Origin: Eledone cirrhosa
Lineage: Eukaryota
Length of the DNA: 64,000 nucleotides
Reading direction: 5' to 3'
Assembly (NCBI GenBank): GCA_964016885.1
Contig: OZ024740.1
Span: forward strand, 247,008,001 to 247,072,000
This document shows, in pieces, positions 1,874-64,000 of the stretch; the first letter of the stretch is position 1, and every line of letters begins with the position of its first letter. The translations under genes and the position numbers were made by a program. The notes beneath the pieces were generated by a model. It was not told the origin of the DNA and ran no database searches. It was given only the letters and a program-made list of their open reading frames with translations.

Positions 1874-1937
1874 TATTTTATTATATATATTTCAAGGGTA
1901 CCAAAAAAACTTTGGTACCCTCTCATCAGATAAAATA
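1874..1937 (-). ncRNA. Minimal type I hammerhead ribozyme
   Basis: - strand: TATTTTAT-CTGATGA-GAGGGTACCAAA/TTTGGTACCCTT-GAAA-TATATATA-ATAAAATA; stems I and II pair. Confidence 0.8.
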
Positions 1938-2284: not shown

Positions 2285-2348
2285 TATGTTATCTGATGAG
2301 AGCGTACCAAAGTTTTTTTCGTACTCTTGAAATATATATAATAAAATA
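2285..2348 (+). ncRNA. Minimal type I hammerhead ribozyme (slightly degenerate)
   Basis: TATGTTAT-CTGATGA-gagcgtac...gtactctt-GAAA-TATATATA-ATAAAATA. Confidence 0.7.
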
Positions 2349-12474: not shown

Positions 12475-15400
12475 TTCGTCTACAGCGTGATAGTGCTACG
12501 CTAAAATCACCGGGGTGATGAAATCACCGTTGGTTATGTAACCATACATTCACCAATCCTCGATATGAGTGTTTAAATGTCGAACCTAAACAGTTCGAAT
12601 AACGGTGAAATGGAGACTGGAATGTCATGTGACAGACTCTCATCCAGCAGGTGCTCCCTGGCCCAGCAGCAGGCTGTCATCCAAATACTGCTGGTGTTGG
12701 AGGAAGAAGAAGGAAAGGGACCAGAACCAACTGGACGAAAGAATTGAATAGAACTGTTATGCAATGTTACCTGAAGAGTAACCCCAAGGATAAAGGCTAT
12801 AGGAAACGGATGCATAACATCTAGAACGAGATGGGTCTATTTAAATTAGATGAACAAAAATTGACCGGGCAGGCTCGGGTAATAAGAACTAATGGGTGGA
12901 TAAGCGAGCTGGAACTGGAGGAACTGAGCAGAGAGATTAGGTTGTAAATGGAGAGTGGAGTATGCCAGGCAAACGAGCCAGTGGGAAATGAAGGTGAAGA
13001 GGTTGAGAGAACGGAGGAAGCATCCGAAGCAGACAATGATCTGAATGCTGAAATAAATAATACCTGGAACAAAGATACGGCCATTGAAGAAATGAATGCT
13101 GACGGGCTAGGACAAGATTTGGTTGATATCCTAAACTTAGTGGTAGATGAAATGAACAATGATAGTGGGAAACCTATGAACCTAAGATTTGTAGACAGGA
13201 AAAAGTTAAAAGAAACAACACCTAAGGTAAATAAAGTCATCCCATACCTTGAGGCGTGGCGCTTTCACCAGTGCAACAATATCCTCAAAGCAACAGCAAA
13301 TGCGATGAGGAAATTACTTGGCATAAAAGCGAGAGGAAACAACAAACAAGAAGGATCAGAACCTTGGTGGAAGAAACGACTGAATGGTCAAATCAGGGAA
13401 ATGAGAAATGACATTGGAAAGCTTAAGTCCCTACTGAATGGGACACTAAAAAACATAGACACAAAAAATAGACTGGAAATAAAGTGCAAAACTAGGAGGA
13501 AAAAGCTAAATATTATCATAGAGGAACTGAAGCAACGTATTGTAGCAAAGAGTGCAAAAATTAGGCGATACGAGAGCAGAGTCAGTCGGTATAGACAGAA
13601 CCGCATGTTTGACAACAACCAGAAGATGCTGTTTGGACAGCTTGAAGGGAAAGAAAGAGGCAACGACTTGATCCTTGAGGCGGAACAAACTAAGTCATTC
13701 TGGAGAGGAATATGGGAGCAGGATGTTAAACATAATGATCAGGCAGTGTGGATTGAGACAGTTCAAAAGGAGATTAGTGAACAGGCACACCAACAAACTG
13801 ATTTGATTATAACAGTTGAAACTCTTAAGGGGTAGGCCAAAAAACTAACCAACTGGAAATCACCAGGCCCAGATGGTGTGCAGGGTATTGGATTAAAAAT
13901 ATAACAACCCTCCACCTGAAACTGACAACCATGTTCAATGACTCCTTGATGTCAGGTGAGGTACCAGAGTGGTTGACAAAAGGTACCACAGCTCTGGTAA
14001 TGAAAGACCGAATCAAGGGTAATGATGTTACCAACTATAGACCTATCACATGTCTGTCCGTAATGTGGAAACTCTTAACAAGCATTGTGTCTGAGGAAAT
14101 CTACCATCACCTCCACATAAACAACTTGTTACCGGACGAACAGAAAGGATGCCGTGGTACAAAGGACCAGTTACTTATTGATAAGATGGTAATGAGGAAT
14201 TGCAAGAGGAGACACACTGGTTTTGCCATGGGATGGATAGACTACAAAAAGGCATTCGACATGGCACCTCATTCTTGGATCACCAAAAGCCTAGTGATCT
14301 TCAGGGTGGCAGATAACAGACAGTTGTTGAGCAAAAGTATGAAGTCCTGGAAAACAGAGTTAACATCGGGCGGAGAATCCTTGGGAGGTGTGAAGATCAA
14401 GAGAGGTATCTTCCAGGGAGATAGTCTGTCCCCTCTGTTGTTTGTCCTTGCCCTGATACCCCTGACCATTATACTGCGAAAAGTGAGAGCAGGATACAGG
14501 TTGGGAAAGGGAGAGCTTACCATCAATCACCTCCTCTTCATGGGCGATCTTAAGCTCTTGGGGAAGAGTAAGAAGGAGTTGGATGTGCTTGTTGACACTG
14601 TCCGTATTTTCAGCAGTGATATATTTATGCAATTTGGTATTAATCAGTGTGGAGTCCTTGTGATGAAGAGGGGTAAATTGTGCAGAAGCAACGGAATCCA
14701 GGTACCAATAGGTGAGATGATAAAGGAAATTGATACTGAAGAGAGATAAAAATATTTAGGTGTTCTGGAGGCTGATGACATCAAGAACAAAAAAATGAAG
14801 GAATTGATAAGATCTGAGTACATTAGGAGAGTAAGGAGCGTATTAAAATCACATCTAAATAGTAGGAATGTCATAAGTGCAGTGAATTCAAGAGCTGTGT
14901 CTATTATTAGGTACAGTGCGGGAATTCTGAGATGGAATGTTGCTGAACAAAAAGAAATGGATAGGAAAACTAGGAAGCTATTGACTATCTACAACATGTT
15001 CCACAAGAGGAGTGATATCGATAGATTCTACTTAAAGAGATCTGAAGGTGGAAGAGGTCTTATCAGCATAGAGGACTGTGTTCAGATGGAGAAAAACAAC
15101 CTACACAAATGAGTGACTGATAGTAGGGATCCAATGCTCAGAATTGTGCTGACGGAGAGGACAATAGAACAGGGGATGTCCAAGGAGAGCAACCTTCATG
15201 AAAAATCCCTTCATAGTACCTTCTTTGAGAAAACTGAATTTAGAGATGCACAGACATGGAAGTGGTTGAAAAGAGGAGACCTTAAAAAGGCTACAGAAGG
15301 AATGCTAATGGCTGCGCAAGAGCAGACCCTCAAAACGAAGTGGGTGAAACACCATATTTACAAGGAGGAGGCTAGCCCACTGTGTAGTATCTGTGGAGAG

Positions 15401-16026
15401 AGAGTGGAGACTGTGGCTCACATTGTATCCGAGTGTAAACACCTAGCCCAGACTCGCTATAAAGGCTGGAGAAATGAGCTGATGGGCAGGGTGATCCACT
15501 GGCACCTATGCAAAGTAAACAATTTACCACATTCTGAGAAATGGTATGAGCATAAGCCAGAGTCGGTGATAGAAAACGATCAGGTGAAGGTGCTGTGGGA
15601 TTTTAGGATACAGACGGACAAGAAACTGGAACACAATAGACCTGACATGGTGCTTTTGGACAAGGAAAAAAGATCATGGCTGATTGTAGATGTAGCCTGC
15701 CCATTTGACACGAGTGTGCAAGAAAATGAGAGGGAGAAAATTAACCGATACCAGGACTTAAAGTGGAAGGTAAAAAGGATTTGGAACTGCCATGAAGTCA
15801 GAGTCGTCCCGATTGTCATAGGCGCACTAGGTACTATCTCCACGAGTTTCCAGGGCTGGTTAAAGAAAATTAGTCCAGCCCCGCTTTTTGGAACACTTCA
15901 AAAGCCATGCTTGCTGGGATCAGCAAGAACCCTCCGATACGTCCTGAATATCTGAGGCTGCAGGAAGCGGCTTGATATTCGTTTCAACAAACTTTTCAGT
16001 TAAATAACTTCAATGACTGAGACTCA

Positions 16027-16323: not shown

Positions 16324-19300
16324 TTACAGACACATACTCAGAGAAGGCCCATTCATTCGGGCCATACTTGCTTCTCTCACCCATCTTTCAACAAAATGCT
16401 GGGAAGAGAGCACTTCCCTCTCTACCCTGATTTTCCTTTTCAAATGAAATTTGAAAAAGTTAATCAGGGCATCACCGAAGAGGTAAGTGCTCGTCTTCAG
16501 CCCTTTCAAACGTGTCCACCATACTATCTCTTTCGCCATGGCCACCAGACAGATAAAAACTGCCTGCCCTTCCAGGCTAAAGGAAGGGGGCGGGGCAATC
16601 CTCACGATGGACTCAGCTGATAGCTGGATAGGTCCTACACGTGACAGCAGGTGTTCGACATAAACCCACAAGTCAGCAATGCTCGGACACTGGACGAGTG
16701 CGTGCAGGACGGTTTCGTCGCCCTGCGCGCATCTCGGACATGCCCGGCTGACGGCACCTCCATGCCTGTAGAGTTTATCCCGAACTGGCAAAGCTCCTCG
16801 GTAGCACTGCCAGGCCAGGGATTTCTGGAAGTTGTCCATAGGCCCCGGCCCGAAAGTCCTTCCGAAGAGATTGGCTAGTTGATTTTCGTCGACGCCTAGA
16901 GTTTCTCCAAGTACGTCGTCGCTCTTCCCCTCCACTAATCCCTTATAGAACGCCAAGGTGGAGTTTCCACCGATCACATTGCCCGATTGGTCGAGGGGTG
17001 TGAGCGCCTGAAGACATTCCAGTCTCCAAGCGCTCCCTCTCGGTCTTCGCTTGACCCAGGACTGCAGCTCCGTCAAGGAGACGAGCTGGGGAAAAACGTG
17101 TCTTGCAAACGGCGACCACACCTGATCACCGTCGAGGAAGAGGTGGAGATGTCGTAGCCTGAGCGCGTGTCTGCGCATCATCAGCCACGGCATTCCCAGC
17201 CCTCCACGTAGCGGGTGTTGACAGCCGATGGACCGCCTGACCATCGGAGCGCGTCCCTTCCACAAGAAGCGAAAGAGCAAACGCTCCAGCGCAGTCAGGC
17301 GGGGTTTAGGACAAGGTACGACGGTCAGGCGGTAGTAGATGACGGATGCGATGTACGCATTCGCCACCTCCGCTCGACCTTTCAGGGATAGCTTCCTCTC
17401 GGCCCATTTCTGGGTGAGAGAAGCCACCCTGCTCGTCACCTCGTCCCAGTTTTTGTCCGTCTGGAGGTCTGGACCGAACCAGACCCCTAGCAATTTAACC
17501 GGTCCGTCCGTCCAGCGCCCGACGACGCTGTTGGACGGCATGGACCTGCCTCTCCAGGTGCCGAGCTGCAGGCCCACTGACTTTTCCTGGTTGATCATTG
17601 CTCCTGTCACCGCTTCGTATTCTCTTAGTGTAGTGCCGATCGCCTCGATGTGTTTGGCGTTCGACACCACTACGGTGACATCGTCGGCATATGCTGACAC
17701 GGATCTTCCGCATCCTAGTTCGCGCGGGACCCCCCTCAACGTCTCCAGTTTGTGCAGTAATGGCTCGAGAGTCAATACGTACAAGAGGGACGAGAGGGGA
17801 CATCCTTGGCGGACCGAGCGCATGATGTTGAACGGTTCCGAAAGGTGACCGTTCACTCTCACTACAGAGCAGATGTCGCTGTGCATGGCAGCGATCCAGC
17901 CTCTGAAGACGGGCCCAAAGCCAGCCGCCCTCAGGACTGCCGTTAGGTAACGATGGTCGACCCTATCGAAGGCTTTCGACTGATCTAAATTGATCAAAGA
18001 CCCACCCATGCCAGGTTCCCTAGCTACCCTCTCTACGATGTATCGCATGAGGTGGAGGTTGTCGTGGATGGATCTGTCGGGAATGGCGCATGTCTGTGCC
18101 TCTCCCACCAGACCACCAACGACAAGCGCCAACCTCTTTGCTAGCACCTTGGCCAAAATCTTGAACTCTGTGTTTAGCAGGGTTATGGGCCTAAAATTAT
18201 CTATGTTATCCCCCTTGTTCGGATCCTTTCTCAGCAGCGCCACCGCTCCTCGGCTCACAGAGCTGGGAATTCTCCCGTTCTGTTGCCAGTTGCAGTAGAC
18301 GTCCGCCAAGAGGCCTCCGAACAAGTTTGGCATTTGTACGTAAAGTTCATAGGACAGACCATCCAAACCAGGCGATTTACACCTTGTGCAACTAGTCATT
18401 GCATCCCGTATTTCAGCGGTTGTTATCGGCTTTTCGCAACACTCCGCCTCAGTGGCCGAAAGCCGCGGCAGTCCGTCGAGGTAGACACTAAAGTCCATCC
18501 CTCGATCCGGCCCGCCACTGCCCCCGAACAGTTGAGCGAAGTGTCGCTGAAAAGCTTCACACATTTGCCCGGGATCGAGTAGCATGCGCCCGTCGTGGTC
18601 CACCAAAGACCGGATCGTGGCTTTGTTGCCACGACGCGCCTCCGCCACTCGGGCCCATTGAACGGCTTTCGTCCCCTCGTGTCTGAGAGCACGCACCCTA
18701 GCTCTGACAACGCAGCCTTCGTGATTCGCATTGAAGAATTGGTCAAGGGCCAATTTCGCCGCAAGTACGTCGGTCGCGATGCCTTTGCTAAGCGCCTCAT
18801 CTAATTTTCTAACTAATTCTCCCTCTGCTCTATTTTTCTCTATTGCTAAAGTCTTACTAAACCTAATGGACTCTATTCTAATTGCTCTTTTCAGAGCAAA
18901 CCACCACTTGTTGTTGACGATGGCCCCCGTCAACGCCCGCTTAACTAGTTCGCTAATCCGGTCTCTGTAGGCCTTGCGCGCTGGTAAGGACGCGTTTAGC
19001 TTCCAGTAGCCGGGTCCTTGTCTATGAAGCCTATCTAAGTCAAGCACACAGATCACGAATTTGTGGTCCGCGTAGCTGACTATCTTGAATTGTGGACAGC
19101 CTATGCTAGACCTATCTATTTCCCTACAAAATACTCTATCTAGATATGATCTGGATGACCCTATGCGATTTGTCCAAGTCCACATTGGTACATTCGGGAA
19201 ATCCATTCGGTACCTGTCAGACAGTTCAAAACGTCTGAGCAGGTTGGTGAGACTCTTGCACCCTCCTTCCCTATCCACTAATCCCACACAATCCCAGCGT

Positions 19301-19742
19301 GCATCTAAGATCCCGTTCCAGTCGCCCACTAACACTAAAGAGCGGGACGTTCCAAGAAAGGTCTCCAGACACCGGTAGAAATCTGGCCGCCCTGCTCCTG
19401 TCGGGGCATAGACGGCCACTAGTCTGAAAGCTTGCCCGTCTCCGCTGGTCACGTCCAGCACCACCAACTTACCTTCTGGGTCCAGGAAGATGGCCCGTAT
19501 GGAGAGATCCAAACCTCTCCGAAAAAGCACAGCAACTCCACCCCCGATCCAGGACGGCTGGGAGATGCGTACACATCGTAGCCGCCGAAAATCGGTGCGA
19601 AGGCCCGTACTTCGGAGATTCTGGTCTCGCTGATGGCCACTACATCTACGTTTAGTGACCTGAGGTCGTTGAGCAGGTGGCCCTGCTTCCATGACGACCC
19701 CAAGCCAGGCGCATTTATGCTGCCTATTCTGAGTGTGGTCAT
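16324..19742 (-). CDS. Tx1 ORF2: APE endonuclease + RT + zf-RVT; one frameshift near 19570
   Basis: IGSINAPG..AISETR (19449-19742 ORF) shifts into the long ORF with VYAP, LVGDWN, YLDRV, ADH, NFRPITLLN, LDQSKAFD, VRQGCPLS, AYADD, CPRC..HALVQC. Confidence 0.9.
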
Positions 19743-19776
19743 GTTGAAATGGAGTGGAAAAGATGGGAAAGACCAC

Positions 19777-25961: not shown

Positions 25962-26028
25962 TATTTTATTATACATATTTCAGAGGTACTGAGCTACCTT
26001 CAACAGTGCGTCCTCATCAGATAAAATA
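25962..26028 (-). ncRNA. Minimal hammerhead (weak stem II)
   Basis: Reverse complement of 26104-26170. Confidence 0.6.
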
Positions 26029-26103: not shown

Positions 26104-26170
26104 TATTTTATCTGATGAGGACGCACTGTTGAAGGTAGCTCAGTACCTCTGAAATATGTATAATAAAATA
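26104..26170 (+). ncRNA. Minimal hammerhead (weak stem II)
   Basis: TATTTTAT-CTGATGA-ggacgcactg..cagtacctct-GAAA-TATGTATA-ATAAAATA. Confidence 0.6.
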
Positions 26171-31851: not shown

Positions 31852-31963
31852 TATATAGTTCGGAATATCAGAAAACAAAAAAAAACAAATAAAACAGACA
31901 AACGCAGGTGTAAATGTTACAAATATTATTAGTTTCACGCTTGGTGAGAGTGGGGGGTGGGTC

Positions 31964-31999
31964 GCGACGTTTCGGGCATAAGCCCTTCATTAGAAGAAG
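31964..31999 (-). ncRNA. Degenerate minimal hammerhead (G5A)
   Basis: - strand: CTAATGA-AGGGC ttat GCCC-GAAAC-GTC; stem I does not pair. Confidence 0.45.
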
Positions 32000-32049
32000 G
32001 GAGGGGGGGGGTACTCTGAGAAGCAGTGAGGGGGGAGTTAGCGAGAAAA

Positions 32050-34360
32050 ATAGGAATAAAACTAAAACATGTGTCATCAGCAGAGAGGCCTACAACACCC
32101 TGGCCCTCCAACACCTTGACGATGACAACTTCTACTCCAAGGTCACGGGAATTACTCCCGCGCAGATAGAAGAGCACATCAACGCCGCCTGGACCAACAT
32201 CTGCGACCGGCGGAAGCTCCCGAAGAAGCTGAGATACAACCTCCTCACGAGGAACAGCAGACTACCCACCTTCTACCACCTCGTGAAAACACACAAACAG
32301 GGACCCGAAGGAAGGACCACTCTACAAAATTTCATGGCTCCTAGCCAGAATATTCAAACCCATCTTAGACACCTTGCCGGGACACGTTAACAGCTCCGAG
32401 GAGGTGTTGAAGCGCCTGCATCAAATGGATCCCGACACCAGAAAGAATAACAAATATGCCTTCAGCTTTGATGTAGTCGCTCTCTACACCTCGGTCCCAG
32501 CACTCCCGACCGTCAATATACTGATGGAACGCGTCCAATCCCCGACCTACACTGCTTCGGGCTCACCACAACTGATATCCACCAAATCCTATCCATCCTC
32601 GTCGACAACACCTACTTCGGATTCCTTGACCAAACATACCAACAAACCTCGGGACTGCCCATGGGATCGAGCCTGTCGGGTGTGCTAGCGATCTCTTACA
32701 TGGACAGCCTCGAGCGTAAGGCACTCAACGTCTGCCACCCCAACGCCGTCGCCTTTTTCTCAAGGTACGTGGACGATATCCTCATCCTCACATCTTCCCA
32801 AGACATGGCGAACAGAACCTATGAGAAGTTCAACAACACGGACGAGAACATTGACTTCATTGTTGAACACCCCAACGACGACGGGTCACTTGCCCTCCAC
32901 AACTTCCGAATCAACATCACGAAACAGGGAGGGATCCACAGCAACTTCTACCGAAAGGCAGCCTGCAGGGACCTGTTCGTCCACTACAAGTCCGCCCTCC
33001 CTAACAGTGCCAAAAGAGGATACATCACGAACGAGATCGCGCGAATCAAAAACAGATGCAGCGATCCCGCGAGTGGTGTCACTCATACCAAGCGATTCCT
33101 CGAGGTGCTGGAGACGAACGGGTATCCTAGCTCGCTCACAGACAGAGTAGCAGACACCAGGCACAAGTGACAGAGAGGCACCCAAGGCAAGTGCTTCCTT
33201 AAAATGCCACACCTGGGCGAGAATACCACCAACGCTATCCGCAAGGCTATACGGAGGGAGGGCCTCGACATCCACCTGGTCCACTCGGGCCGTCCCTGCG
33301 AAGATGCCTCTCCAGGAAACCCGGGAAATCAACTGACGCGTGCTCCCTCAGAGACTGCCCGATGCGCCATGCGAACTGTTGCCTACGCACATACGTCGTG
33401 TATAAGATAGAATGTAACAAGGGCAACCAATAATATATAGGTAGCACAATCCGGCCGGATCAAGGAACACACTAAAACCAGGGCCTCGTCTTTCCGGAAA
33501 CACATAGCCAAATGCGGAAACAAAGACGGAAGGCCCATTGTCACAATTATAGCGACAGAAAGAAACGTCGGCACATTACGTATCAAGGAAGCACTTTGGA
33601 TCAAACGCCTAGGGCCACAACTAAACAACCGATCCGAGAGAAGCGAAATGAGGTGGTTGGTTTAAGTTAACAAACGATGCAGCAACACACGCACACACAC
33701 AAGCGAGACAGCAACACACGCACACACACACACAAGCGAGACAGCAACACACGCACACACACACACACACACACACAGTAGCATTCCACCATACAAACAT
33801 ACTACACTGCCAATACAGAGGAACAAGGCAACAACACACGCACACATACACACACTCAAGCGAGAAAACAACACACACACGCACACACACACACACACAC
33901 ACAGTAACATTCACCAAACAGGCAGAGAATGGACTGACAGCTAGCGCCACCCCACTCCCACGATTGAAAGAACTACTTCGGTCGTTGACCTCTGCCTGAC
34001 CGACCCCATTTCACGCGCACGCGAGCTCTGCTGAATACCTCAGATATTCAAATCAACGGACAGCGGAGGACATGTTTCGCACCTTTCCGACAGACAACCT
34101 CCCCACCCCCCGGAAAAAACCCCAGTTGATGGATGTGAATCCGAAATATATAGGGACAATTAAATCTCTCCCAAGGTAACTCTTTCTCGTGTTGTTATTT
34201 TTATTTTTATCCTTTACGCTCTTTCCTTCATTCCTCTACACGTTACAGTCTTATACACGCCACGCATGTCAACGTACACCCACTTACATCTCTCTCTCCA
34301 CCACCGGATCTTGTTACCCGGAGATCTACCCATCTGCATTGTCGAGGCTTCCAAACGACT
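32050..34360 (+). mobile_element. Penelope-like element (RT + GIY-YIG) pseudogene with 3' pLTR
   Basis: RLPTFYHLVKTHK, FSFDVVALYTSVP, MGSSLSGVLA, FSRYVDDIL, FYRK; VVYKIEC..YIGST; degenerate hammerhead at 34120-34155. Confidence 0.85.
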
Positions 34361-38859: not shown

Positions 38860-38954
38860 ATGAGTATTTCATTGTTATTTAGTATGATCATATCATAAAC
38901 ATCTAAAACAAAGCCTCCCTTCCACCTGTCTATCTATCTATCTATCTATCTATT

Positions 38955-41900
38955 TGCGAGGCCCGGATCAGCAACGTGCGACAGCTGGCCCCCACCTTTG
39001 ATGACTTTGAGATGCACGCATCTCTCTGTCAGCCCGGAGGTGGGGGTGGAGTTGTCGTTCTGCTGCAAAAACATCTGGGTCTCGCAACACAGATGGTACA
39101 TTTGGACCCGGAGGGTCGACTAGTGGTTCTGGACCTTGGCAGTGGTAAAGGCGGAACGTTTAGGTTGGTAGCCGCCTACGGCCCTTTCGGGTCAATGCGG
39201 CCGGACTTCTTCCATCGTCTGGAGACTTTTCTAGGGACGTCCCGCTCCTTGCTATTAGTGGGGGACTGGAATGGTATCCTAGATGCACGCTGGGACTACG
39301 TAGGAGCCTGCCCCGATAGAGAGGGGTGTAATAGCCTCAAAGGGTTAATCGGTCGATTTGACCTGGCCGATAGATATTGACTAGATTTTCCGACTGCGCC
39401 AACCTGGACTTGGGCAAATCGTAGCGGATCATCTAGGTCGTACCTAGATAGGTTCTTAGTTAGAATTAAGGATGGGGACTTTTTAAGTTGTCCAAAAATG
39501 CGCATGGTTGGCTATTCAGACCACAAATTAGTGACCTGCATGGTCAACCTTGACAGAACTCATAGACAGGGCCCCGGTTACTGGAAGCTCAACTTGTCCT
39601 TGCCGGCAAGTAGAGCCTACAGGAATCGGATTAGTACGTTAGTTAAGGAACGGTTGACTGGAGCGATCGTCAACAGCAGGTGGTGGGTATCTCTAAAGAG
39701 AGAGATTAGAGTAGTCTCGATAGAATTTAGTAAGGTTCTAGCTGCGGATAGGAATAGGAAGGAAAGGGAGCTAATAGATAGAGTAGAAGAGGCAATTAGA
39801 AGCGGCGACGTGGCCAGAGTGCTAGCGTCGAGAACGGCTTTGAGCCAGTTTTTCGACGCGAAGCACGAAGGCTGCGTTGTCCGAAGTAAAATACGTGCTC
39901 TAGGGAACGAGGGGACCAAAGCTGTTAGCTGGGCCCGCGTGACAGAGGCCAACAGTGGAACTAAATCCACCATCCGGTCTTTGCGAGACCTGGATGGACG
40001 GGCGATTCTTGAGCCTAAGCAGATGTGTGAGGCCTTTCAAAAGCACTTTGCCCGACTGTTCGGGAGGGGCGGGGAGCCGGTTGGGAACGTGGACTTCGGT
40101 CCATACCTCGACGGCCTGCCGCGCCTCTCGGACAGGGAGGCGAAGTCCTGCGAGGAGCCGATTTCGGCCGCTGAGATAGAGGACGTGCTGAGCCAATGCG
40201 GCAAACGCAAATCCCCGGGTCTCGATGGTCTTCCTTACGAATTATATCTAGCTATGCCGGACTTGTTCCCCGATCTCCTCGAGACGGTCTACTGCAACTG
40301 GCAACAGAACGGGAGAATTCCCTGTACTGTGACCAAGGGCGTAGTCACGCTAGTGAGGAAGGACGAGAACAAGGGGGACGAAATAAGTAACTTCAGGCCC
40401 ATAACACTACTAAATACAGAGTTACAGATTTTGGCCAAGGTGCTAGCAAAGAGGTTGGCGCTTGTCGTGGGCAACCTGGTGGGAGATGCGCAGACATGCG
40501 CTATCCCGTCCAGGTCCATCCATGACAACCTCCACCTCATGCGATACATCATAGAGAGGGTTGGGAACGAACCCGGCTTTGGTGGGGCTCTGATCAACTT
40601 GGATCAATCTAAGGCGTTCGATAGGGTCGACCATGGTTACCTGGATGCGGTGCTAGCGGCGGCAGGCTTCGGACCCGTTTTCAGGGGCTGGATCACTGCT
40701 ATGCACAGCAGCCGCATCTGCTCTAGGGTCAAGGTGAACGGCTACCTCTCGGAGCCGTTCAAAATCGCGCGGTCCATCCGACAAGGGTGCCCTCTCTCCT
40801 CCCTTCTGTATGTGTTGACTCTCGAGCCACTACTGCGGAAGTTGGAGTTGTTGCAGGGCATCCCTTTGGAACCGGGATTGCGGAAAGCGGTGTCGGCCTA
40901 CGCCGATGACGTGACAGTAATGGTGTCGACGGCCTCCGAAATCGAGGCGGTCGGCACCTTACTGGAGGAGTACGAAAAGTTCACAGGGGCTAAGCTGAAC
41001 CGGGACAAGTCGATCGGTTTGCAACTCGGCACGTGGAGGGGCAGACCGATGCCCTCCGATGGCGTCGTCGGACGCTGGACGGAGGGCCCGGTGAAGTTGC
41101 TCGGGGTCTGGTTCGGACCGGACCTCCAGGTGGAGAAAAACTGGGCGGAGGTTACGAACAGGGTGTTTGCACTGACCCAGAAGTGGGCCAGTTGCAAACT
41201 ATCCCTGAAAGGTCGGGCGGAGGTGGCGAACACCTACATAGCGTCCGTCATCTACTACCGCCTGACCGTAGTGCCCTGCCCAAGGGAAACCCTCACCAAG
41301 ATGGAGCGCGCGCTCTTCCAATTCCTTTGGAAGAGGCGGGCTCCTATGGTGAGGAGATCCATCTGCTGTCAACACCCTTCGAAAGGAGGGCTGGGGATGC
41401 CGTGGCTAATGATGCGTAAACACGCATTAAGGCTACGGCACCTCTACGTATTCCTCACCGGACAACCGGTGTGGGCCTCGTTTGTGAGACGAACCTTTCC
41501 CAGACTCGTCTCACTCACCGAGCTGCAATCCTGGGTCAAGCAAAGACCGAGAAAACTGGGCGCCTGGCACACTGAGTGTGCCCAGGCGCTCACCGCCCTC
41601 TGGCAGGCGGATCCGGTTATCAGTGGAGACTCCACCGCAACATTCTATAGAGGGCTGGTACGCAGCAGGTGCGACGACGCCCTCGGAGAAGCCCTAGACA
41701 TGGAGGAGGACGAACTGGCCAGCCTGTTCGGTAGGACATTCAGCCCGGGACCTATGGACAACTTCCAGAAGTCCCTGGCCTGGCAGTGCTACCGAGGGGC
41801 TTTACCCGTTCGAGAAAGGCTCTACAGACACGGGCGCCCGGGTAGGGACCCCGCCAAAAAGATCTGTCCCAGATGCGTGTGCGACGAGGAAACCGTTGCA

Positions 41901-42263
41901 CACGCATTGGTACACTGCTCGGGCGTAGCCGATCTGTGGGGCTATGTCGAACAACTGCTGTCAAGGGTGGGACCGATCCGGTTGACCACCGAGTCTATTG
42001 TGATGATCAAGCCGCCTCCCCCCTTCAAAGATGAAGCAGGGGCGGTGTTTCTGTGCGTGATAGCCATGGCGAAAGAGGTTGTATGGTGGACGCGTCTGAA
42101 AGGACTGAGGTCAGGCACCTTTCTCTCTGGCCAACAACTGGTCCGTTTCTTCCGATATCATTTCGGAAGAAGGATCAGGATGGAGAGAGAGGTGCTGCAC
42201 CCCAGCCGTTTCTATGAAAGATGGGTGAAAGTGGCGAGAATGGCCCGTGTGAATGGGCCTTGA
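38955..42263 (+). pseudogene. Tx1 ORF2 with one premature TGA (39378-39380)
   Basis: ORFs 38976-39380 and 39498-42263 are in the same frame; YSDH, NFRPITLLN, AYADD, CPRC..HALVHC. Confidence 0.88.
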
Positions 42264-43094: not shown

Positions 43095-43130
<36 letters not shown>

Positions 43131-43220
43131 ATAATAATAAAATTGAAGACTAAAATCCAAAGAGGGCTCGATAAGGAAAATATATATCAAATATATAAGA
43201 ACCGTAGAGCAAATATTTAT

Positions 43221-44790
43221 TAAAATAACAGATTAAAGTTTAAGCAAAGAATCGCTGCTTTCACCCTTAACGGGATCTTCTGAAACTAACAAAGTCAATC
43301 TGTAAACGCAGAACTGGATATTTCAAAAAACGTTGCAACCGGAGGAAGACAGGAAGACGATACTTTGGTTCTTGGTAACGTTCGCTGGCAAAGAACGGGA
43401 AAAAACGAATAATACGTCATTAATAGGAGCGGTGAAAAACAATTACGCGCAAAGACAAAACCACGTTTATGGTATAAAAAAGGTCGTAGACTAATGTTCT
43501 CTTAGGTGGTGCATAGAGACGTTCTCTGGCAATGAACGAAAAAACGAAGATAAGTCATATGTGGAGCGTGGAGAACAATAGCACGCAAAGACAAAACCAC
43601 GTAAATGGTATAGCAGAAATCGTAGACTAAAATTCTAACTAGGAGACCAAATGAATCTCCGCTACAGAGTTAAGAACAAAGTAAATAAATACAATACAGA
43701 AGTAATAGAAACAAATAAATACATACACGCAAACAGATACGTACATACACAAGCATACGCAAAACCTTACCATAGGTATACAAAACCACGCACATATAAA
43801 TATGTGTGTGTGTGGTGCTTGTGTACAAATAAATAAATAATTATATAAACGTATATAAGTAAATAAATACGTATATAACAAGCGCACACGCATACCTACA
43901 TATAAATACACGAATGTTCGGAGACGTAAGTCAACTAAAACAAGAAGTACACATATACACACACCCACCATACGTACGAACCTGCATACTCACGCGGACG
44001 CAAAACTCTCGTATACACATAGCCAAACCCTAAATACCAGAATATGTAAAAATTACATACGCCAGAACAGTCAAATATACGTACGAGAAGGTATACATAC
44101 CTTCACAAAACATACGGGTAATATATACTTACCTATGCAAATAAGTAAAGGAATATTCAAAACATATACTTAGCTCCCACATCAAGACGTAAAAATCCAC
44201 GTATAGATCGTGCTATCCGTTAGGGTATAACGTGGGGCTGTAATACAGGAAAGTTTTGTGCAATTTATGTTTACAAGCCGAAATTGCCTCAGATTTTTTG
44301 TTTAAGATGTGGTCTGTGGCGTAGAGTATTTCCAGGGCCTCAGCGGCGCAGAGGTCACATGGTCTTTTATTTCCGTTATACGATCTTGCCCTAGCTAGGA
44401 TCTCCCAGTGTAACTTATATTGGGTGTGGTTGTCTTTTAGACTCCAGATATAAGCTGAAAGTGACGTCATATTCCTTCTTAAAGGGTGACGAAAAGAATG
44501 GGTATGCATGTAAAGACGCTGCTTGAAACTATTGGCGGTTAACCCTATGTAGGCCCTACGGGACGTGGGTGTTACAACCTTACATCTGTAGACAATGTTA
44601 CTAGAGAGGCATTTCCCGGATAGGGGGCAATCAGCCCGATTCCTACAATTACAGTTAGTACTAACTACAGGGTTGCACGTTTTTTTACGGCTAGGTAGTT
44701 TAGCTAAATTTGAAGCTGTGATGTTATGTGCAAGGTTAGGAGTCGTAGAGTAAGAAATGTTAATAGTATTTCTATTAAAAATTTTAATAA
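43221..44790 (-). mobile_element. Naiad-type Penelope-like element, 5'-truncated (GIY-YIG + 3'UTR + hammerhead 43237-43287)
   Basis: KIFNRNTINISYST..CNCRNRADCPLSGKCL..IVYRC..YIGLT..FKQR..H..LSAYIW..CDLC..E..LN..CKH. Confidence 0.88.
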
Positions 44791-44829
44791 CAAACCGAAC
44801 ATTATAATAAATGTTCGGTAAACCCATAC

Positions 44830-44892
<63 letters not shown>

Positions 44893-44896
<4 letters not shown>

Positions 44897-47620
44897 TTGA
44901 AGCTTCTGAGATTATGTCAAAACTTGGCATCGGAAAAAAGACCGAACCATTCCTCCCAAGAACTCCGAGGATAAATCTCAAGGATCACTAAAACAATTTT
45001 CGTACTGAACTACCTGTTAGACTAATTGCCCCCTCTAAATCAGATCTGGGGGTTGTTAGCAAAGCCATCTTGGATAGAATTATCCCACAGGTTCGTTCTA
45101 ATTGCTCTTCTTTGAACTTAAATTTATGGTTTGGTACTTCTGAAGTGATTGGCTGGTTCAACAAATTGAATAAGAAAAATAAACACAAATTTATTCAATT
45201 TGATATTGCCAGCTACTATTCTTCTATTTCGCCCTCACTTCTCAACAATGCTCTATCTTTCGCTTACAAATATTCAGACATCACCACAGATGAACTTCAC
45301 ATCATTCTCACCGCACGTAAAACCCTCCTAGAGTTCAACAATGAATATTGGACCAGAGCTGATACCTCTAACAACTTTGACATTACAATGGGAGCATCCG
45401 ATTCATCCCAATTGACAGATTTAATTGGTATCTTTATTTTGAACTCTTTGAATCGGAAAATTCCTCAACTCCGCGGTGGAATTTATCGTGACGATGGACT
45501 CTTTACTATCTTAAATTGCAACATAGTTAACCTTAATATTATTAAGAACAATATACGTAATCTCTTTAACCAACATAACTTAAAAATTGAATTTGATAAC
45601 AGCATCAAACTAGCTAATTTCTTGGATGTATCTCTTAATCTTGACACTGGCCTATATTACCCTTACCATAAAAACAATGAGAACCTAAATTATGTTAATT
45701 TTAAATCTAACCATCCTACTAATATCAAGAATGCTATAGTTAGTAATATTGGAAAAAGAATATCTAACCTATCTTCTAATAAAAACATCTTTGATGCTAA
45801 CGCCAATTACTATTATAACGCGCGATAAAATCAAATATAGTAAAGAAAAAAATTCTAAGTGTTCTTACAGTAGAATAATTAATCATGATCATTCCAATAA
45901 CTTTAATAAAAGACCTAGATACAAAAAACATAATCTGGTATAATGCTCCTTTTTACATCTCTATTAATAATAATATTCCTAAATTATTCTTTAGTGCCTT
46001 AAATAAATGCTTCCCTCCCTCACATATCTATAGTAAAATATTTAACAAACACACTATGAAATTTTCCTATTCGACTTCCTCCAACATCCCCAACATTATC
46101 TCTAAACACAACAATAAAATACTAAATATTAAATCTCTTCCTTCCAACACTGAATATCATAATAATAGTAATAGTACTTCCGGCATCATTGTTAACTCTA
46201 GGATAATTTCTGCAAACCCAAATACAACATCAAACGCAACTTCGTTAAATGTTCTTAATCCCATTCTAAATCAAGAAACTATTATTCCTATCGTAAATAA
46301 CTTCTCCAATCCAATTCCTTCTATAGATAACACTAGGTCACTTGTTAATAACTCTGTTAATTTCTCTAATCGCAATTGTAATTGCCCTGTTAAAAGTCAA
46401 TGTCATCTCAACAACCATTGTCTTGAAAAAAATTAATCTACGAATGTAAAGTTATAACTGACACGAATTCCTTTACCTATTTTGGCTCCACTTCCACCTC
46501 CTTTAAAGCTCATCTTTATAATCATCATTCGTCTTTTAAATACCAACTTAAAAGAACCAACACGGCACTTTCAGAACTCATATGGTCCTTGAAAGACAAA
46601 AATATTAACTATAACATCTCTTGGAAGAAGGTTTGTTCTGCTTCTTCATACTTGAATGGTTCTCTATCCAAGACATGCAATCTCTGTTTATGTGAAAAAT
46701 TTACCATTATATCTAATTTAGATTCTATAATAAATAGACGCACTGACTTGTTTTCTCTCTGCTTGCATAAATTCCACAGAACATTCCATAAAGTATACAG
46801 CTAATATCTAATACTTTATCAATTTAAAATCCTTTTCTCAAAGGCACATATATATATACATATATATTTCTTTAAAAATATACCCATCTTTCTACCTTAT
46901 TTCAATGTTATTTAGTATACATTATATAATACTAGTTACTCATTCTATATCACTCCTATTTATCACTTCCCTTTCTTTCTTTTTTCCTTTTTTCTTTTCT
47001 TTTTTCTTTTTCTTTTAATTTCTAACCCCTAATCTGTATCTTTTCTTCCTAGATACTTCTCAATTCTCATTGTTACTCAGCACAATATATCCTTACATCA
47101 TAATATCACCTTGAAAAAATCCTTCGTAAACATAAACATATTTTTGATGTTAGATTATTCATCCTCAATTCATTATTTTTTTCTCCCTTTCATGCTCATC
47201 TAACTTATACATGTTACACTTATTCATCCACTCTTCTACTTCTTTTCACAATATATCCTTAATTACATTACTATTGTTATATTTTTATATTTTTTAATAA
47301 TACATATCAACAATTTCCATCGCACATATTATTAAACCCTTAAATATTATTCTTAATACATATTAACAATTTCTTTTCATCGCACATATTATTAAACCCT
47401 TCAATTTTTCTCTTTGTTAATTTTCAAATTCTTTTAATTTATATATTATCTTCCAACGGTTTTTTAACCTCTCTATGTAAAACAATATATTTTTCTCAGT
47501 TATAAAAGCTATCTCTCTCTCTCTATTATCCATCTCTCCTCCTATCTCATCCTTCCTTATTATACTCCTCCCCTCCACTTTTTACTATCATCTCCTCCTC
47601 TTTTTCATCCTCCCCCCTCA
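44893..47620 (+). mobile_element. Naiad-type Penelope-like element (RT + GIY-YIG), disrupted
   Basis: LKDH*NNF..VRLIAPSKSD, FIQFDIASYY, FDITMG, GIYRDDGL, FLDV, SNHP; IIWYNAPF; CNCPVKSQC..; CNLCLCEK..CLH. The 3' boundary is approximate. Confidence 0.9.
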
Positions 47621-47780: not shown

Positions 47781-48314
47781 AAACGAAAAAAATGAAACGA
47801 AATTTCATTTCAGACTCTTGATACGGCTGTTACTTAAATATAAGTATGTACACGTACATACATATATTTATACAGACGTACAATAGTATGTATATATATA
47901 TACATACATGCACACATATATATATGTACGTATGGATTCACCGAACATTTATTATAATGCTCGGTGTGTTTGTAAACAAACATCCCGTATCAAGCCGTAG
48001 TGTCTAGCAACCATCGTTGCTCGTTTGTTCAACACTTACAAAGGAACGCTGCACTAGTTTCAAGCTTATTAGCTATCGTCAGCAACGTATACCTTCCTGC
48101 CAGATTGTTGAACGTATATACTTACCTTACGCATATTAATGGCTGAGTAGCCCAATTTGCATATCGAGTGGGTTAATCGGCCGGGTGCACCGAAAACGAT
48201 AAACGGAAAAAATGAAACGATATTTCATTTCCCACTCTTAGTACGGCTGTTACTTAAATATATGTATGTACACATACATACATACATACATACATACATA
48301 CATACATACATACA

Positions 48315-48409
<95 letters not shown>

Positions 48410-48462
48410 GTAAGTATGTATGTATACGTACATACATATATGTATACAGACGTACAGTAGCA

Positions 48463-48502
<40 letters not shown>

Positions 48503-48775
48503 TACATACAGGTACACATACATATATGCACGCATCAGTTTAGCGGACACTTATTATAACGCCGCTTTGTTCGTTTGTAAACAAACTGAACAGCCTGAAT
48601 TTATGCCATACGGTGTTAAGGCAACCACGTCACCTTTTTGTTCAACACTGACACAGGAACGATGTACTAGTTTCAAGCTATACATATATGTATGTACGTA
48701 TACATACATACTTACATTTAAGTAAGTGCCATACTAAGAGTGAGAAAAGAAATTTCGTTTTCATTTTTTTCAACT
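47781..48775 (-). repeat. Tandem ~420 nt ORF-less hammerhead repeat (retrozyme-like), 1.7 units plus an inverted end
   Basis: aaacg.aaaaaatgaaacga.atttcatt..ctctt..tacggctgttacttaaata at 47781 and 48201; inverted copy at 48690-48770. Confidence 0.7.
48046..48088 (-). ncRNA. Type I hammerhead (GUG at the cleavage site, probably inactive)
   Basis: ACGTTG-CTGACGA-tAGCT aata AGCTt-GAAAC-TA-GTG-CAGCGT. Confidence 0.7.
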
Positions 48776-48853
<78 letters not shown>

Positions 48854-55846: not shown

Positions 55847-56616
<770 letters not shown>

Positions 56617-59426: not shown

Positions 59427-59890
59427 ATCGTCTCCGTTGAACCGGTACGTACTCACGCTCTATGCAAATTAGTCTGCCCACTACTAATTTTCATAGAAAA
59501 AGCATATAACGATATGTGCTTTTACGATTCTCTAGAAAGGCCGGAAGATAGGTAAATATTGCTGATGAGATGTAACAACATCGAAACTAGTCCAATATTC
59601 CTTGTCTGGCTTTCTGGAGAATAGAGGAAAGGTGTTTCCTAAAAAACCAGTATGACTCTAAAAACCGGTTTTTTCTGTGTGTTTACATACAGAATAGCTG
59701 GACACTCACAGTAAAGTGACCAGTGAAAAACTCGGTACATCTACATATGTACACGTGTGTGTATTCATATGCATACTAGTATTTCAGTATACATATGTGG
59801 ATGTACATTTTTAACTTAATTGTTTAAGCGTCAGTCATACAAAAGTGAGTTACAAACGAAACGAAATTTAATTTCGTTTCGTTATTTGTT
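59427..59890 (+). repeat. ~460 nt ORF-less hammerhead element (retrozyme-like), distant homolog of 47781-48200
   Basis: Same order of motifs: tatcgt, ATGCAAAT, hammerhead, tgtttac + hairpin, catacta, terminal gaaa..tttc hairpin; embedded in (TA)n. Confidence 0.6.
59555..59599 (+). ncRNA. Canonical type I hammerhead ribozyme
   Basis: AATATTG-CTGATGA-GATGT aaca ACATC-GAAAC-TA-GTC-CAATATT; stem I extends via AGG/CCT past a TA bulge. Confidence 0.92.
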
Positions 59891-62267: not shown

Positions 62268-63975
62268 TTAATTAGGTTTATAATATTTAAAGGTTTTTCT
62301 CAGTTTGTGATTACACGATATTATTAATTCCTGTCGCTTATTTAATAGGATATCCTTAGATTTCATTATTTGAAAAAGTTCTTGGGAACATAATCTACAT
62401 TCATATCTATTATTTTGATAAGGGGTGGCCCTTTTGAGCACACTCCAGGTCAGGTCATAATCTATATTCCTCTTTCTATAATTATTAATTATTTCAGCTA
62501 GAGATGTTGTATTAGCTAGTGCGGAATTTTTAAAGCTATGTTTGTGGGTATTAAATCTTACCTTAAATTTGTTAGAGGTAGCTCCTATATATGAATAAAT
62601 TGAGTCTTTAGTGTTAACTTTACATTTATATACTATGTTATTAACAAGGCAATTTCCTTTTAATGGGCAGTTTGCCTTGTTTCTACAGTTACAACTTTTC
62701 GTGAATCCTGTATCCGAGGAGATATTATGGTTAGTTTGATGTACTGGTGGTATACTCATGGCTTTTTTACATTTATATGCATTGTAGGCACTTATATTTT
62801 GTTTTATGTTTTTGGTTGTTGAGTAGAAGAATTTAACCGTTGATCTATTTAAAATTTGATGGTATTTGTGGTTTGGCGGGAAGTTCTTCTCTAGGATATT
62901 AAAGAATTTTTTAGGTATATTATCCTTAATTTGTAAATTAAATGGAGCATTATACCAAGTAACTCGTCTATTACGGTTTCGATGTTGTTTATTGTTTTTA
63001 TAGGATGTATCCTGATGTTTATTAAGAGAATTATTGTTAATGACTTCACCACACACCTTTTTAGTTAGATTTATTGATTTAGGTGTTTTAGCTTGTTTAT
63101 TAGGAGTTTTATTATTACCATTTGTTAGAGTTGTAGGATGAGTAGTTTTTTGAGAGTTACTATATTGTATATTAGAAGAGTTAGAGAAATTTGGTTTTAT
63201 GTTGGTATTTTGGGGTATAGTGTGAGTGGCATTTAGGTGTGTATGTTTCATTTGGTGTTTGTTGGTAATTTGTAGTGTTGTTGGTACAAGGTATATATAC
63301 TAATTTATTTTTGTGGCCACTTCTAGCTAGAGCTTCGTTATAAAAGGTCGCATTTTTATCAAATACATCCTGGTTAGACGAAAGGTTAGAAATTCTAAGT
63401 GATATATTATATGCAAGGATTTTAAGGATAGATTTAGGGTGATTAGATTGTGAGTGTATGTAGTGTAAATTTTGGTTAGGTTTATGGTGAGGTTGGTAGA
63501 TACCCGTAGATAAGTCTAATGTTATATCAAAGAAATTAACTACTTTACTTGTGTTTTCAAATGTAATATCTAGACTATAATAGTCTTTAAGGAAAGTTCT
63601 AATAAGCTTTTTATTTTTTTTTCTATCTCTGAAAGGCTAAGGTTATTGGAAAGAAGAAGACAGTCGTCACGATATAAACCACCTTTAAGGTGGGGAAAGG
63701 AAGCATTTATGTTGAAAAGAAGAAAGAGGCCCACAAGATCAGTAATTTGGGCAGAATCACTTGAGCCCATAGTAATATCGAATAGATTACTATATGTGTT
63801 TCTGGTCCAGTATTCATTTTGAAATTCCAATAGTGTTAGTCTGGCATGTGTAATAATATTAATGTCATCCAAAGTTAAGTTAGATCTATTTTTAGCAAAT
63901 ATCAAGGCTTTGTTCAGGAGTATAGGTGATATAGAAGAAGAATAATTATCTATATCAAATTGTAGAAATGAAGCA
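62268..63975 (-). mobile_element. Naiad-type Penelope-like element (RT + GIY-YIG), frameshifted
   Basis: FLQFDI, FDITMGSSD, GGLYRDDCL; VTWYNAPF; CNCRNKANCPLKGNCL..IVYKC..YIGAT..FKVR..CRLCSQE..LLNKRQE..CNH. Confidence 0.9.
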
Positions 63976-64000
63976 GTGACCTCTCAGGGACGAACTGCTA

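What the first reader, a model, noticed from the sequence alone, without database searches (positions are those of the whole stretch)
47781..48680. Retrozyme-like tandem ~420 nt hammerhead repeat with an octamer motif
Seen: head-to-tail ORF-less units (47781-48200 and 48201-48680). On the - strand each carries a hammerhead (complete at 48046-48088; 3' half with GUA near 48655-48680) and a second hairpin. The complete unit also has ATGCAAAT (48155-48162) about 100 nt upstream of the cleavage site. Established: metazoan non-LTR retrozymes are tandem hammerhead repeats of a few hundred nt processed to circular RNA and thought to be mobilised by Penelope-like elements; newt satellite 2 uses an snRNA-type promoter with an octamer. 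Inference: a cephalopod retrozyme family with its own promoter, possibly mobilised by the neighbouring Naiads.
Basis: partly seen in the sequence, partly recalled or inferred. Interest (0 to 1): 0.72.

Follow-up and report, generated by a model that had tools for sequence, protein, structure and literature searches.

The report
Promoter-bearing hammerhead retrozyme, decayed copy
This is a probably inactive copy of a 424-base non-coding repeat, present thousands of times in this animal genome, that carries a hammerhead-ribozyme motif behind the same short DNA box found in front of the host's U6 and MRP RNA genes, and that likely spreads as self-cut RNA pasted in by Hydra-type Penelope retrotransposons.

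Summary
Real, but differently built than reported. The hammerhead at 48088-48046 (-) belongs to a young ~424-nt family (A): 7,733 exact core matches genome-wide, covarying helices, family triplet GUA. This copy has GUG, so it is probably dead. The second 'unit' is a chimera: a truncated A unit plus a separate two-armed insertion of sister family B. A relative (C) sits at 59430-59885. None of 38 sampled A loci is attached to a PLE ORF. 3' ends fall at two fixed sites ~59 nt apart in (TA)n, and 12 of 12 two-armed insertions with two fixed ends pair one of each, the grammar of the neighbouring PLE. That PLE is Hydra-clade (intact 713-aa ORFs), not Naiad; no shared end sequence was found. The octamer is part of a box lying at -77..-79 of U6 and RNase MRP genes, absent from 12 Pol II snRNA promoters; its TATA spacing is 4-5 nt shorter. 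No RNA, cleavage or circle was observed. Verdict: new member of the non-LTR retrozymes, newt-satellite-2-like. The scan noted this family type repeatedly on other DNA of this genome.

The parts
47781..48200 (-). Complete family-A retrozyme unit (420 nt; family 420-430, mostly 424); 3' end at the long fixed site running into (TA)n
48201..48349 (-). 5'-truncated family-A unit (last ~150 nt, expanded microsatellite), same insertion as the complete unit
48152..48163 (-). Octamer-containing box TATGCAAATTGG, like the box at -77..-79 of U6 and RNase MRP genes
48142..48146 (-). TCAGC, 26 nt before the TATA-like element, the spacing of TCAGT in U1/U2/U5 promoters; weak support only
48115..48120 (-). 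TATA-like element (TATATA), 43 nt from the box; predicted start of transcription about 48090-48085
   Evidence: start site inferred
48046..48088 (-). Type I hammerhead motif, one-pair helix III with palindromic CUAG loop; triplet GUG here (family GUA); would-be cut between 48052 and 48051
47941..47964 (-). Internal hairpin; a close variant has 2,732 exact matches in the genome
47786..47810 (-). Terminal hairpin followed by a T7 run just before the long fixed 3' end
48405..48680 (-). Family-B arm 1: starts inside hammerhead helix II (3' half with GUA at 48679-48659), ends at the short fixed site
48681..48777 (+). Family-B arm 2, inverted, ends at the long fixed site
59430..59885 (+). Family-C relative (466-nt units elsewhere): box at 59461-59472, hammerhead 59556-59598 (GUC here, GUU in most sampled copies)
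43127..44782 (-). 5'-truncated Hydra-clade PLE (family H1; endonuclease plus 1.1-kb 3' UTR); candidate type of mobiliser
44783..44836 (+). About 53-nt fragment of a related retrozyme (hairpin part) joined head-to-head to the truncated Hydra ORF with only 2 nt between
44992..46804 (+). Broken Hydra-type ORF (RT then GIY-YIG); the A/B insertions lie in the TA/CA tract about 1 kb downstream of it

Best explanation
The stretch is one GUG-mutated, probably inactive insertion of an abundant non-coding hammerhead repeat (family A) beside a separate insertion of a sister family (B); intact arrays elsewhere likely transcribe themselves from the U6/MRP-like box in each unit, are predicted to self-cut as dimers into unit-length, likely circular RNA, and are likely copied into (TA)n by a Hydra-type Penelope enzyme. 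Steps: (1) shown: box + TATA-like element + hammerhead in each unit, conserved across families A, B and C; (2) inferred: transcription starts at or just before helix I and must read through the T6-T7 run, since copies carry their promoter; (3) inferred: the one-pair helix III needs two neighbouring units to form a double hammerhead; (4) untested: ligation to a circle; (5) shown as footprint, inferred as mechanism: both strands of a nicked (TA)n target prime by TAT microhomology at two template sites ~59 nt apart, giving head-to-head arms with fixed 3' ends, random 5' ends and up to 12 near-identical units per arm.
For: 7,733 exact matches to the 35-nt hammerhead core, control 0. Helices I and II keep pairing with changes on both sides at 5 of 12 pairs; 90% of cells paired against 18-43% for slid controls (15 variants seen in at least 2 overlapping loci, one inversion-broken variant left out). 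Of 53 scored arm 3' ends in 38 merged loci, 23 long, 22 short, 8 other; 5' ends scatter over the whole unit. Of 19 head-to-head pairs: 12 long+short, 0 long+long, 0 short+short, 6 with one irregular end, 1 cut off (one of the 12 is the window's B pair). Hydra H1 shows the same two ends, 116 nt apart, with opposite ends on opposite arms in the loci where both are seen, and has intact 713-aa ORFs. 0 of 38 A loci have an attached PLE ORF; 4 have ORF remnants within the fetched ~1.5 kb. L208: all 18 units on both arms share a variant seen in only 1 other of 42 loci; L206: 9 units on both arms share one. Box present in 3 of 4 U6 upstream classes and in the single RNase MRP gene, in 0 of 12 U1/U2/U5 promoters; matrix score reached by 0 of 300 shuffles for the window unit, B and C. 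Palindrome duplex -4.8 to -5.4 kcal/mol against +5.0 for the monomer hairpin.
Against: No transcript, cleavage or circle was observed. No sequence shared between the ends of A and the 3' regions of the three window Hydra families above shuffles, except one 22-nt match near the start of the H1 3' UTR, so the partner family is unidentified. Box-to-TATA spacing is 43 nt against 47-49 in U6/MRP, and a T6-T7 run would stop Pol III before a unit is complete. Young long arrays often carry ATGCATAT (6 of 26 loci; matrix score reached by 5 of 300 shuffles), so the perfect octamer is not required for spread. L087 has mixed variants that one monomer circle does not explain. L209 (period 4) and L210 (two identical units with 25 shared differences, including GUG) show that arrays also grow by duplication of decayed DNA. 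Li et al. 2026 found cleavage in only 1 of 9 predicted Xenopus dimers.
Confidence: 0.72

Rival explanations
1. Same family and PLE-type insertion, but without own promoter or circles: read-through transcripts of existing arrays give linear multimers that are reverse-transcribed, and arrays then grow by DNA-level duplication; the box is a passive relic.
For: Mixed variants in L087; duplicated decayed units in L209 and L210; ATGCATAT variant in young arrays and off-spacing TATA; a review states that retrozymes seem to lack promoters (PMC7761336).
Against: Box and TATA spacing (43-44 nt) are kept in A, B and the distant C while the sequence around them diverges; 18 identical units on two inverted arms in L208 would need an uncut 5-kb transcript with 12 intact hammerheads.
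Confidence: 0.17
2. The units are orphan pseudo-LTRs: 5'-truncated ends of an autonomous PLE not yet found, made tandem by the PLE's own partial-tandem integration.
For: PLE-type inverted arms and fixed ends; minimal hammerhead like those of PLE pLTRs; flanks examined reach only ~1.5 kb and only three Hydra families were compared.
Against: 0 of 38 A loci, and none of the 60 further B, C and D loci screened, show an ORF running into a unit; the one close case (L063) is an insertion into an ORF. Arms pass from unit to unit up to 12 times with no coding DNA.
Confidence: 0.07
3. A satellite DNA spread by DNA-only routes (unequal crossing-over, extrachromosomal DNA circles); the hammerhead is a relic.
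For: Higher-order periods in L204 and L209.
Against: Strand-polar fixed 3' ends, random 5' truncation, long+short pairing, TA targeting, covarying helices, GUG copies rare and mostly single.
Confidence: 0.04

Closest known systems
Metazoan non-LTR retrozymes (Cervera and de la Pena 2020, PMC7229834, parts 2-4 of 6 read; Li, Clavereau and Pollet 2026, 10.64898/2026.07.22.740005, parts 1-3 of 5 read)
   Same: ORF-less tandem units of a few hundred nt, each with a type I hammerhead, thousands of copies, strongly folded RNA (z -6.1), co-resident PLEs.
   Different: Units carry a box matching host U6/MRP upstream regions; insertions have two fixed ends and paired inverted arms; helix III is of the weak amphibian type, whereas most invertebrate retrozymes cleave as monomers. 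RNA and circles not shown here.
Newt satellite 2 and axolotl HHR_Amex1/2 (Coats, Zhang and Epstein 1994: not held; seen only as a title and one sentence in PMC2220036)
   Same: Internal snRNA-type promoter ahead of a hammerhead; one-pair helix III with palindromic tetraloop (Amex1) and U.U at the base of helix II (Amex2) as described in PMC7229834.
   Different: Newt promoter is cited as Pol II; here the significant match is to the host's Pol III type-3 genes, with shortened spacing. That the newt promoter has an octamer is recalled, not read.
Hydra clade of Penelope-like elements (Craig et al. 2021, PMC8557442; abstract, passages and section 11 read)
   Same: (TA)n targets, 5' truncation, inverted 5'-truncated arm, end extension on one side only, hammerheads.
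   Different: The repeat encodes no protein and shares no clear end sequence with the three Hydra families tested; extension is ~59 nt against 30-40 in the paper.
Naiad elements (same paper)
   Same: (TA)n preference, inverted and tandem insertions.
   Different: Naiads have an N-terminal endonuclease and lack canonical hammerheads; the window ORFs near the repeat have a C-terminal endonuclease.

Membership tests
Metazoan non-LTR retrozyme | Type I hammerhead in each unit | tested here: met
   (family); window copy has GUG
Metazoan non-LTR retrozyme | Tandem units of about 150-1000 nt, at least two consecutive complete hammerheads | tested here: met
   Family: arrays up to 12 units per arm. 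Not met at this locus: one complete hammerhead only
Metazoan non-LTR retrozyme | No protein-coding capacity, not attached to a PLE ORF | tested here: met
   0 of 38 loci attached, within ~1.5-kb flanks
Metazoan non-LTR retrozyme | Dispersed copies with marks of retrotransposition | tested here: met
Metazoan non-LTR retrozyme | Self-cleavage of the RNA | not testable with these tools
   motif and covariation only
Metazoan non-LTR retrozyme | Expressed as linear and circular unit-length RNA | not testable with these tools
Newt satellite 2-type (snRNA-promoter) repeat | Internal element matching host snRNA promoters | tested here: met
   box shared with U6 and RNase MRP upstream regions
Newt satellite 2-type (snRNA-promoter) repeat | Pol II snRNA-type architecture | tested here: inconclusive
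   TCAG-TATA spacing as in U1/U2/U5 in A and B, but composite score reached by 14-25 of 300 shuffles (A) and more (B, C)
PLE pseudo-LTR | Flanks or follows an RT-EN ORF | tested here: not met
Naiad (for the neighbouring ORFs) | GIY-YIG endonuclease N-terminal to RT | tested here: not met
   RT precedes GIY-YIG in the 713-aa H1 ORF and at 44992-46804 and 62268-63983
Hydra clade (for the neighbouring H1 ORF) | C-terminal GIY-YIG, CxCx5C linker, DKT, RWK-like motif, (TA)n targets | tested here: met
   CNCRNRADC, SDKT, RWR in L197-L202 (DKT in 5 of 6) against section 11; no tree built

The most novel reading that the evidence does not exclude
A self-promoting RNA-circle retroposon lineage that captured the host's U6/MRP upstream box, shortened its TATA spacing by half a helical turn so that transcription reads through the unit's T-run, and is written into (TA)n by a live Hydra enzyme priming twice on one circle, ~59 nt apart; the window's Hydra arm joined head-to-head to a retrozyme arm would be a snapshot of one Hydra particle using both RNAs.
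Probability: 0.25. Interest if true: 0.72.

Novelty: new member of a known kind. Interest (0 to 1): 0.5.

Why it matters
How animal retrozymes are transcribed and which enzyme moves them is proposed but not shown in the papers read (PMC7229834 Discussion; PMC7761336; Li et al. 2026). This genome offers young copies 97-100% alike, a candidate promoter with host genes as controls, intact 713-aa Hydra ORFs, and a sharp insertion rule (one long and one short end per two-armed insertion). That makes promoter, dimer cleavage, circle and mobilisation directly testable. The locus itself is ordinary: a decayed copy.

Tried and rejected
Expression: no RNA holder listed; contigs laid served only to read family alleles; the low-share runs X4-X6 are no evidence. 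ADAR-editing origin of the GUG change and of family variants: singleton A>G against T>C on the RNA strand was 13:11 in A (38 loci) and 17:15 in B (23 loci), no excess; 3 of the 5 differences of the window unit from the majority in its first 262 nt are A>G, too few to judge. Pol II snRNA composite promoter: not significant. Dimer-circle reading of period-2 array L204 (alternate units have a helix II break): kept as possible, weakened by L209 and L210. Shared ends with Hydra H1 and the two other window families: none. Hydra-retrozyme chimeras: 1 of 30 H1 loci (the window itself); L063 proved to be an insertion into an ORF. Pfam gave no family for the Hydra pieces. Rfam hits in the window are microsatellite noise apart from HH9; the repeat finder was swamped by (TA)n. 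The row D_L197 had wrong coordinates and was ignored; one motif test (246G) was mis-specified and ignored; the L205 part failed. Coats 1994 and Lunse 2017 are not held. Literature searches; none listed a paper on cephalopod retrozymes or on U6-type promoters in retrozymes, but most subscription papers are not covered, and no supplements were read (those of Craig 2021 list hammerheads of Hydra families and may bear on the partner).

Full report
Observation. On the minus strand 48088-48046 reads as a type I hammerhead: helix I (6 bp), CUGACGA, helix II (4 bp above a U.U mismatch), GAAA, a single A-U pair closing a palindromic CUAG loop, then the triplet and the 3' strand of helix I. A strict descriptor finds 3 such motifs in the window and none in 200 of 200 shuffles. 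Rfam misses it. The unit folds better than all 100 shuffles (z -6.1; internal microsatellites contribute).

Two corrections. The complete hammerhead has GUG. The family has GUA: all first 100 listed of 7,733 exact matches to the 35-nt core; a pattern with GUG and one of the two loop variants has 39 matches, mostly single. That G at this position blocks cleavage is recalled knowledge (NUH rule); the table of natural hammerheads in PMC1636495 lists GUC, GUA and AUA only (passages). Second, 48201-48680 is not a unit. Its first ~150 nt are a truncated family-A unit; beyond a TA tract lies a separate insertion of family B with a minus arm (~48405-48680) and an inverted plus arm (48681-48777). B has its own 96-99% identical copies and tandem arrays. 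The locus thus holds one complete, mutated hammerhead and cannot yield a unit-length RNA by double cleavage.

The family. The window is G000:C1:247008001-247072000 in a 3.0-Gb assembly. The 40 candidates scored of 1,465 were 97-100% identical over 321 nt. A, B and the relative C at 59430-59885 align over their length (C forms 466-nt arrays); a further group carries the hairpin variant with 2,732 exact matches. Across 15 hammerhead variants 90% of pair cells are kept and 5 of 12 pairs change on both sides; slid controls give 18-43%. Relatedness inflates such counts, and most double changes come from C, but helix I position 4 shows five pair types. Helix III is stable only between two units, as described for amphibian and PLE hammerheads (PMC7229834; PMC7761336 passages).

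Insertion grammar. I merged 60 loci (30 top hits, 30 first along C1 with an exact core; both samples favour intact copies) into 38. Of 53 arm 3' ends scored (identity at least 88%, not cut off), 23 lie at the unit end after the T-run, 22 about 59 nt earlier, 8 elsewhere; both fixed sites end in TAT and run into (TA)n; 5' ends are scattered. Of 19 head-to-head pairs, 12 are long+short, none long+long or short+short, 6 have one irregular end and 1 was cut off; 12 of 12 by coin-toss is about 2 in 10,000. The cut one and a further array proved long+short. Craig et al. describe inverted 5'-truncated arms and a 30-40-bp extension at one end as PLE marks.

The neighbours. The family at 44213-44780 is young (150 scored hits at 96-100% identity), has intact 713-aa ORFs with RWR, DKT and CxCx5C, the Hydra diagnostics, and shows the same two-end rule with 116 nt spacing. 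No tree was built. No end sequence is shared between A and three Hydra 3' regions, so Hydra is the likely class of helper, not an identified partner. In the window the truncated Hydra ORF is joined head-to-head to a 53-nt retrozyme fragment with two bases between. One particle switching RNA would give this; so would a second insertion with loss of the TA flank. It was 1 of 30 loci.

The octamer. I fetched host U1, U2, U5, U6 and RNase MRP genes. Twelve distinct U1/U2/U5 promoters, chosen from 34 loci by removing near-identical array copies, have AATTA near -89, YCAGT near -56 and a TATA-like element, and no octamer box. TATGC(A/T)AAT(T/G)AG lies at -77..-79 in 7 of 10 U6 loci (3 of 4 upstream classes; the fourth has unrelated DNA there) and in RNase MRP. 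A matrix from these four scores the repeat's box above all 300 shuffles for the window unit, B and C. With a TATA at -30, transcription in A would start at unit position 111-116, at the first bases of helix I. Against a plain U6-type reading: box-to-TATA is 43 nt, not 47-49, and T6-T7 precedes the unit end, so Pol III would give an RNA without its promoter. A and B have TCAGC at the U1/U2 distance from the TATA, but this is not significant. Insect work shows that promoter sequence sets polymerase choice and that spacing is conserved (PMC1761439 passages); that Pol II spacing is about 4 nt shorter there is recalled. The polymerase is open. ATGCATAT replaces the octamer in 6 of 26 loci, including long young arrays.

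Circle or not. L208 has 18 units on two arms, identical down to microsatellite length, all with a variant seen once elsewhere among 42 loci; L206 is similar. This fits an enzyme going round one RNA circle from two primers. L204 alternates two unit types ten times, one with a broken helix II, which fits a dimer circle. But L087 is mixed, and L209 and L210 show duplication of decayed units, so array structure supports circles without proving them. No A-to-G excess was found.

Comparison and verdict. It works like, and by every testable feature is, a metazoan non-LTR retrozyme, closest in design to newt satellite 2. Cleavage and circles could not be tested. Earlier notes of this scan describe what is probably the same family and the same promoter idea on other DNA of this genome; I tested the ends, the promoter match and the editing claim myself. 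New member of a known kind; the value lies in a testable system, not in this copy. Interest 0.5.

Noticed in passing
window 44783-44836 / 44213-44782: Retrozyme hairpin fragment joined 5'-to-5' to a truncated Hydra ORF with 2 nt between; possible template switch, or nested insertion.
   Followed up: partly
window 43230-43300 (-): Hydra H1 3' UTR carries a hammerhead-like fold with core CAGAAGA instead of CUGAnGA and a long helix III, just before the short fixed end; the altered core is the same in the full copies printed (5 of 6 L197-L202 regions show it, one as CAGCAGA).
   Followed up: no
window 1876-1935 (-), 2287-2346 (+), 25964-26026 (-), 26106-26168 (+): Two further inverted pairs of hammerhead motifs with long helix II and AUA triplet, another family.
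   Followed up: no
window 47781-47835: The last 55 nt of the window unit differ from the family at about five clustered positions; origin unexplained.
   Followed up: partly
L204 (G000:C1:49582500-49590500): Ten-unit array with strict period 2; every second hammerhead has a helix II break.
   Followed up: partly
L111-L154, L203: Host Pol II snRNA genes and Pol III type-3 genes use different upstream boxes (AATTA -89 and TCAGT -56, against an octamer-like box at -78), and U1/U2/U5 have TATA-like elements.
   Followed up: partly
L063:1343-2225: Retrozyme dimer inserted into a Hydra ORF at a non-(TA)n site with a ~9-nt repeat on both sides.
   Followed up: partly
window 16324-19776 (-), 38907-42263 (+), 12948-15955 (+), 31914-33170 (+), 55917-56546: Long non-LTR RT ORFs (1,150 aa open frame at 16324-19776), a Penelope-type RT piece (RVT_1), and an apparent inverted duplication around a TA tract (identical translations on both strands).
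   Followed up: no
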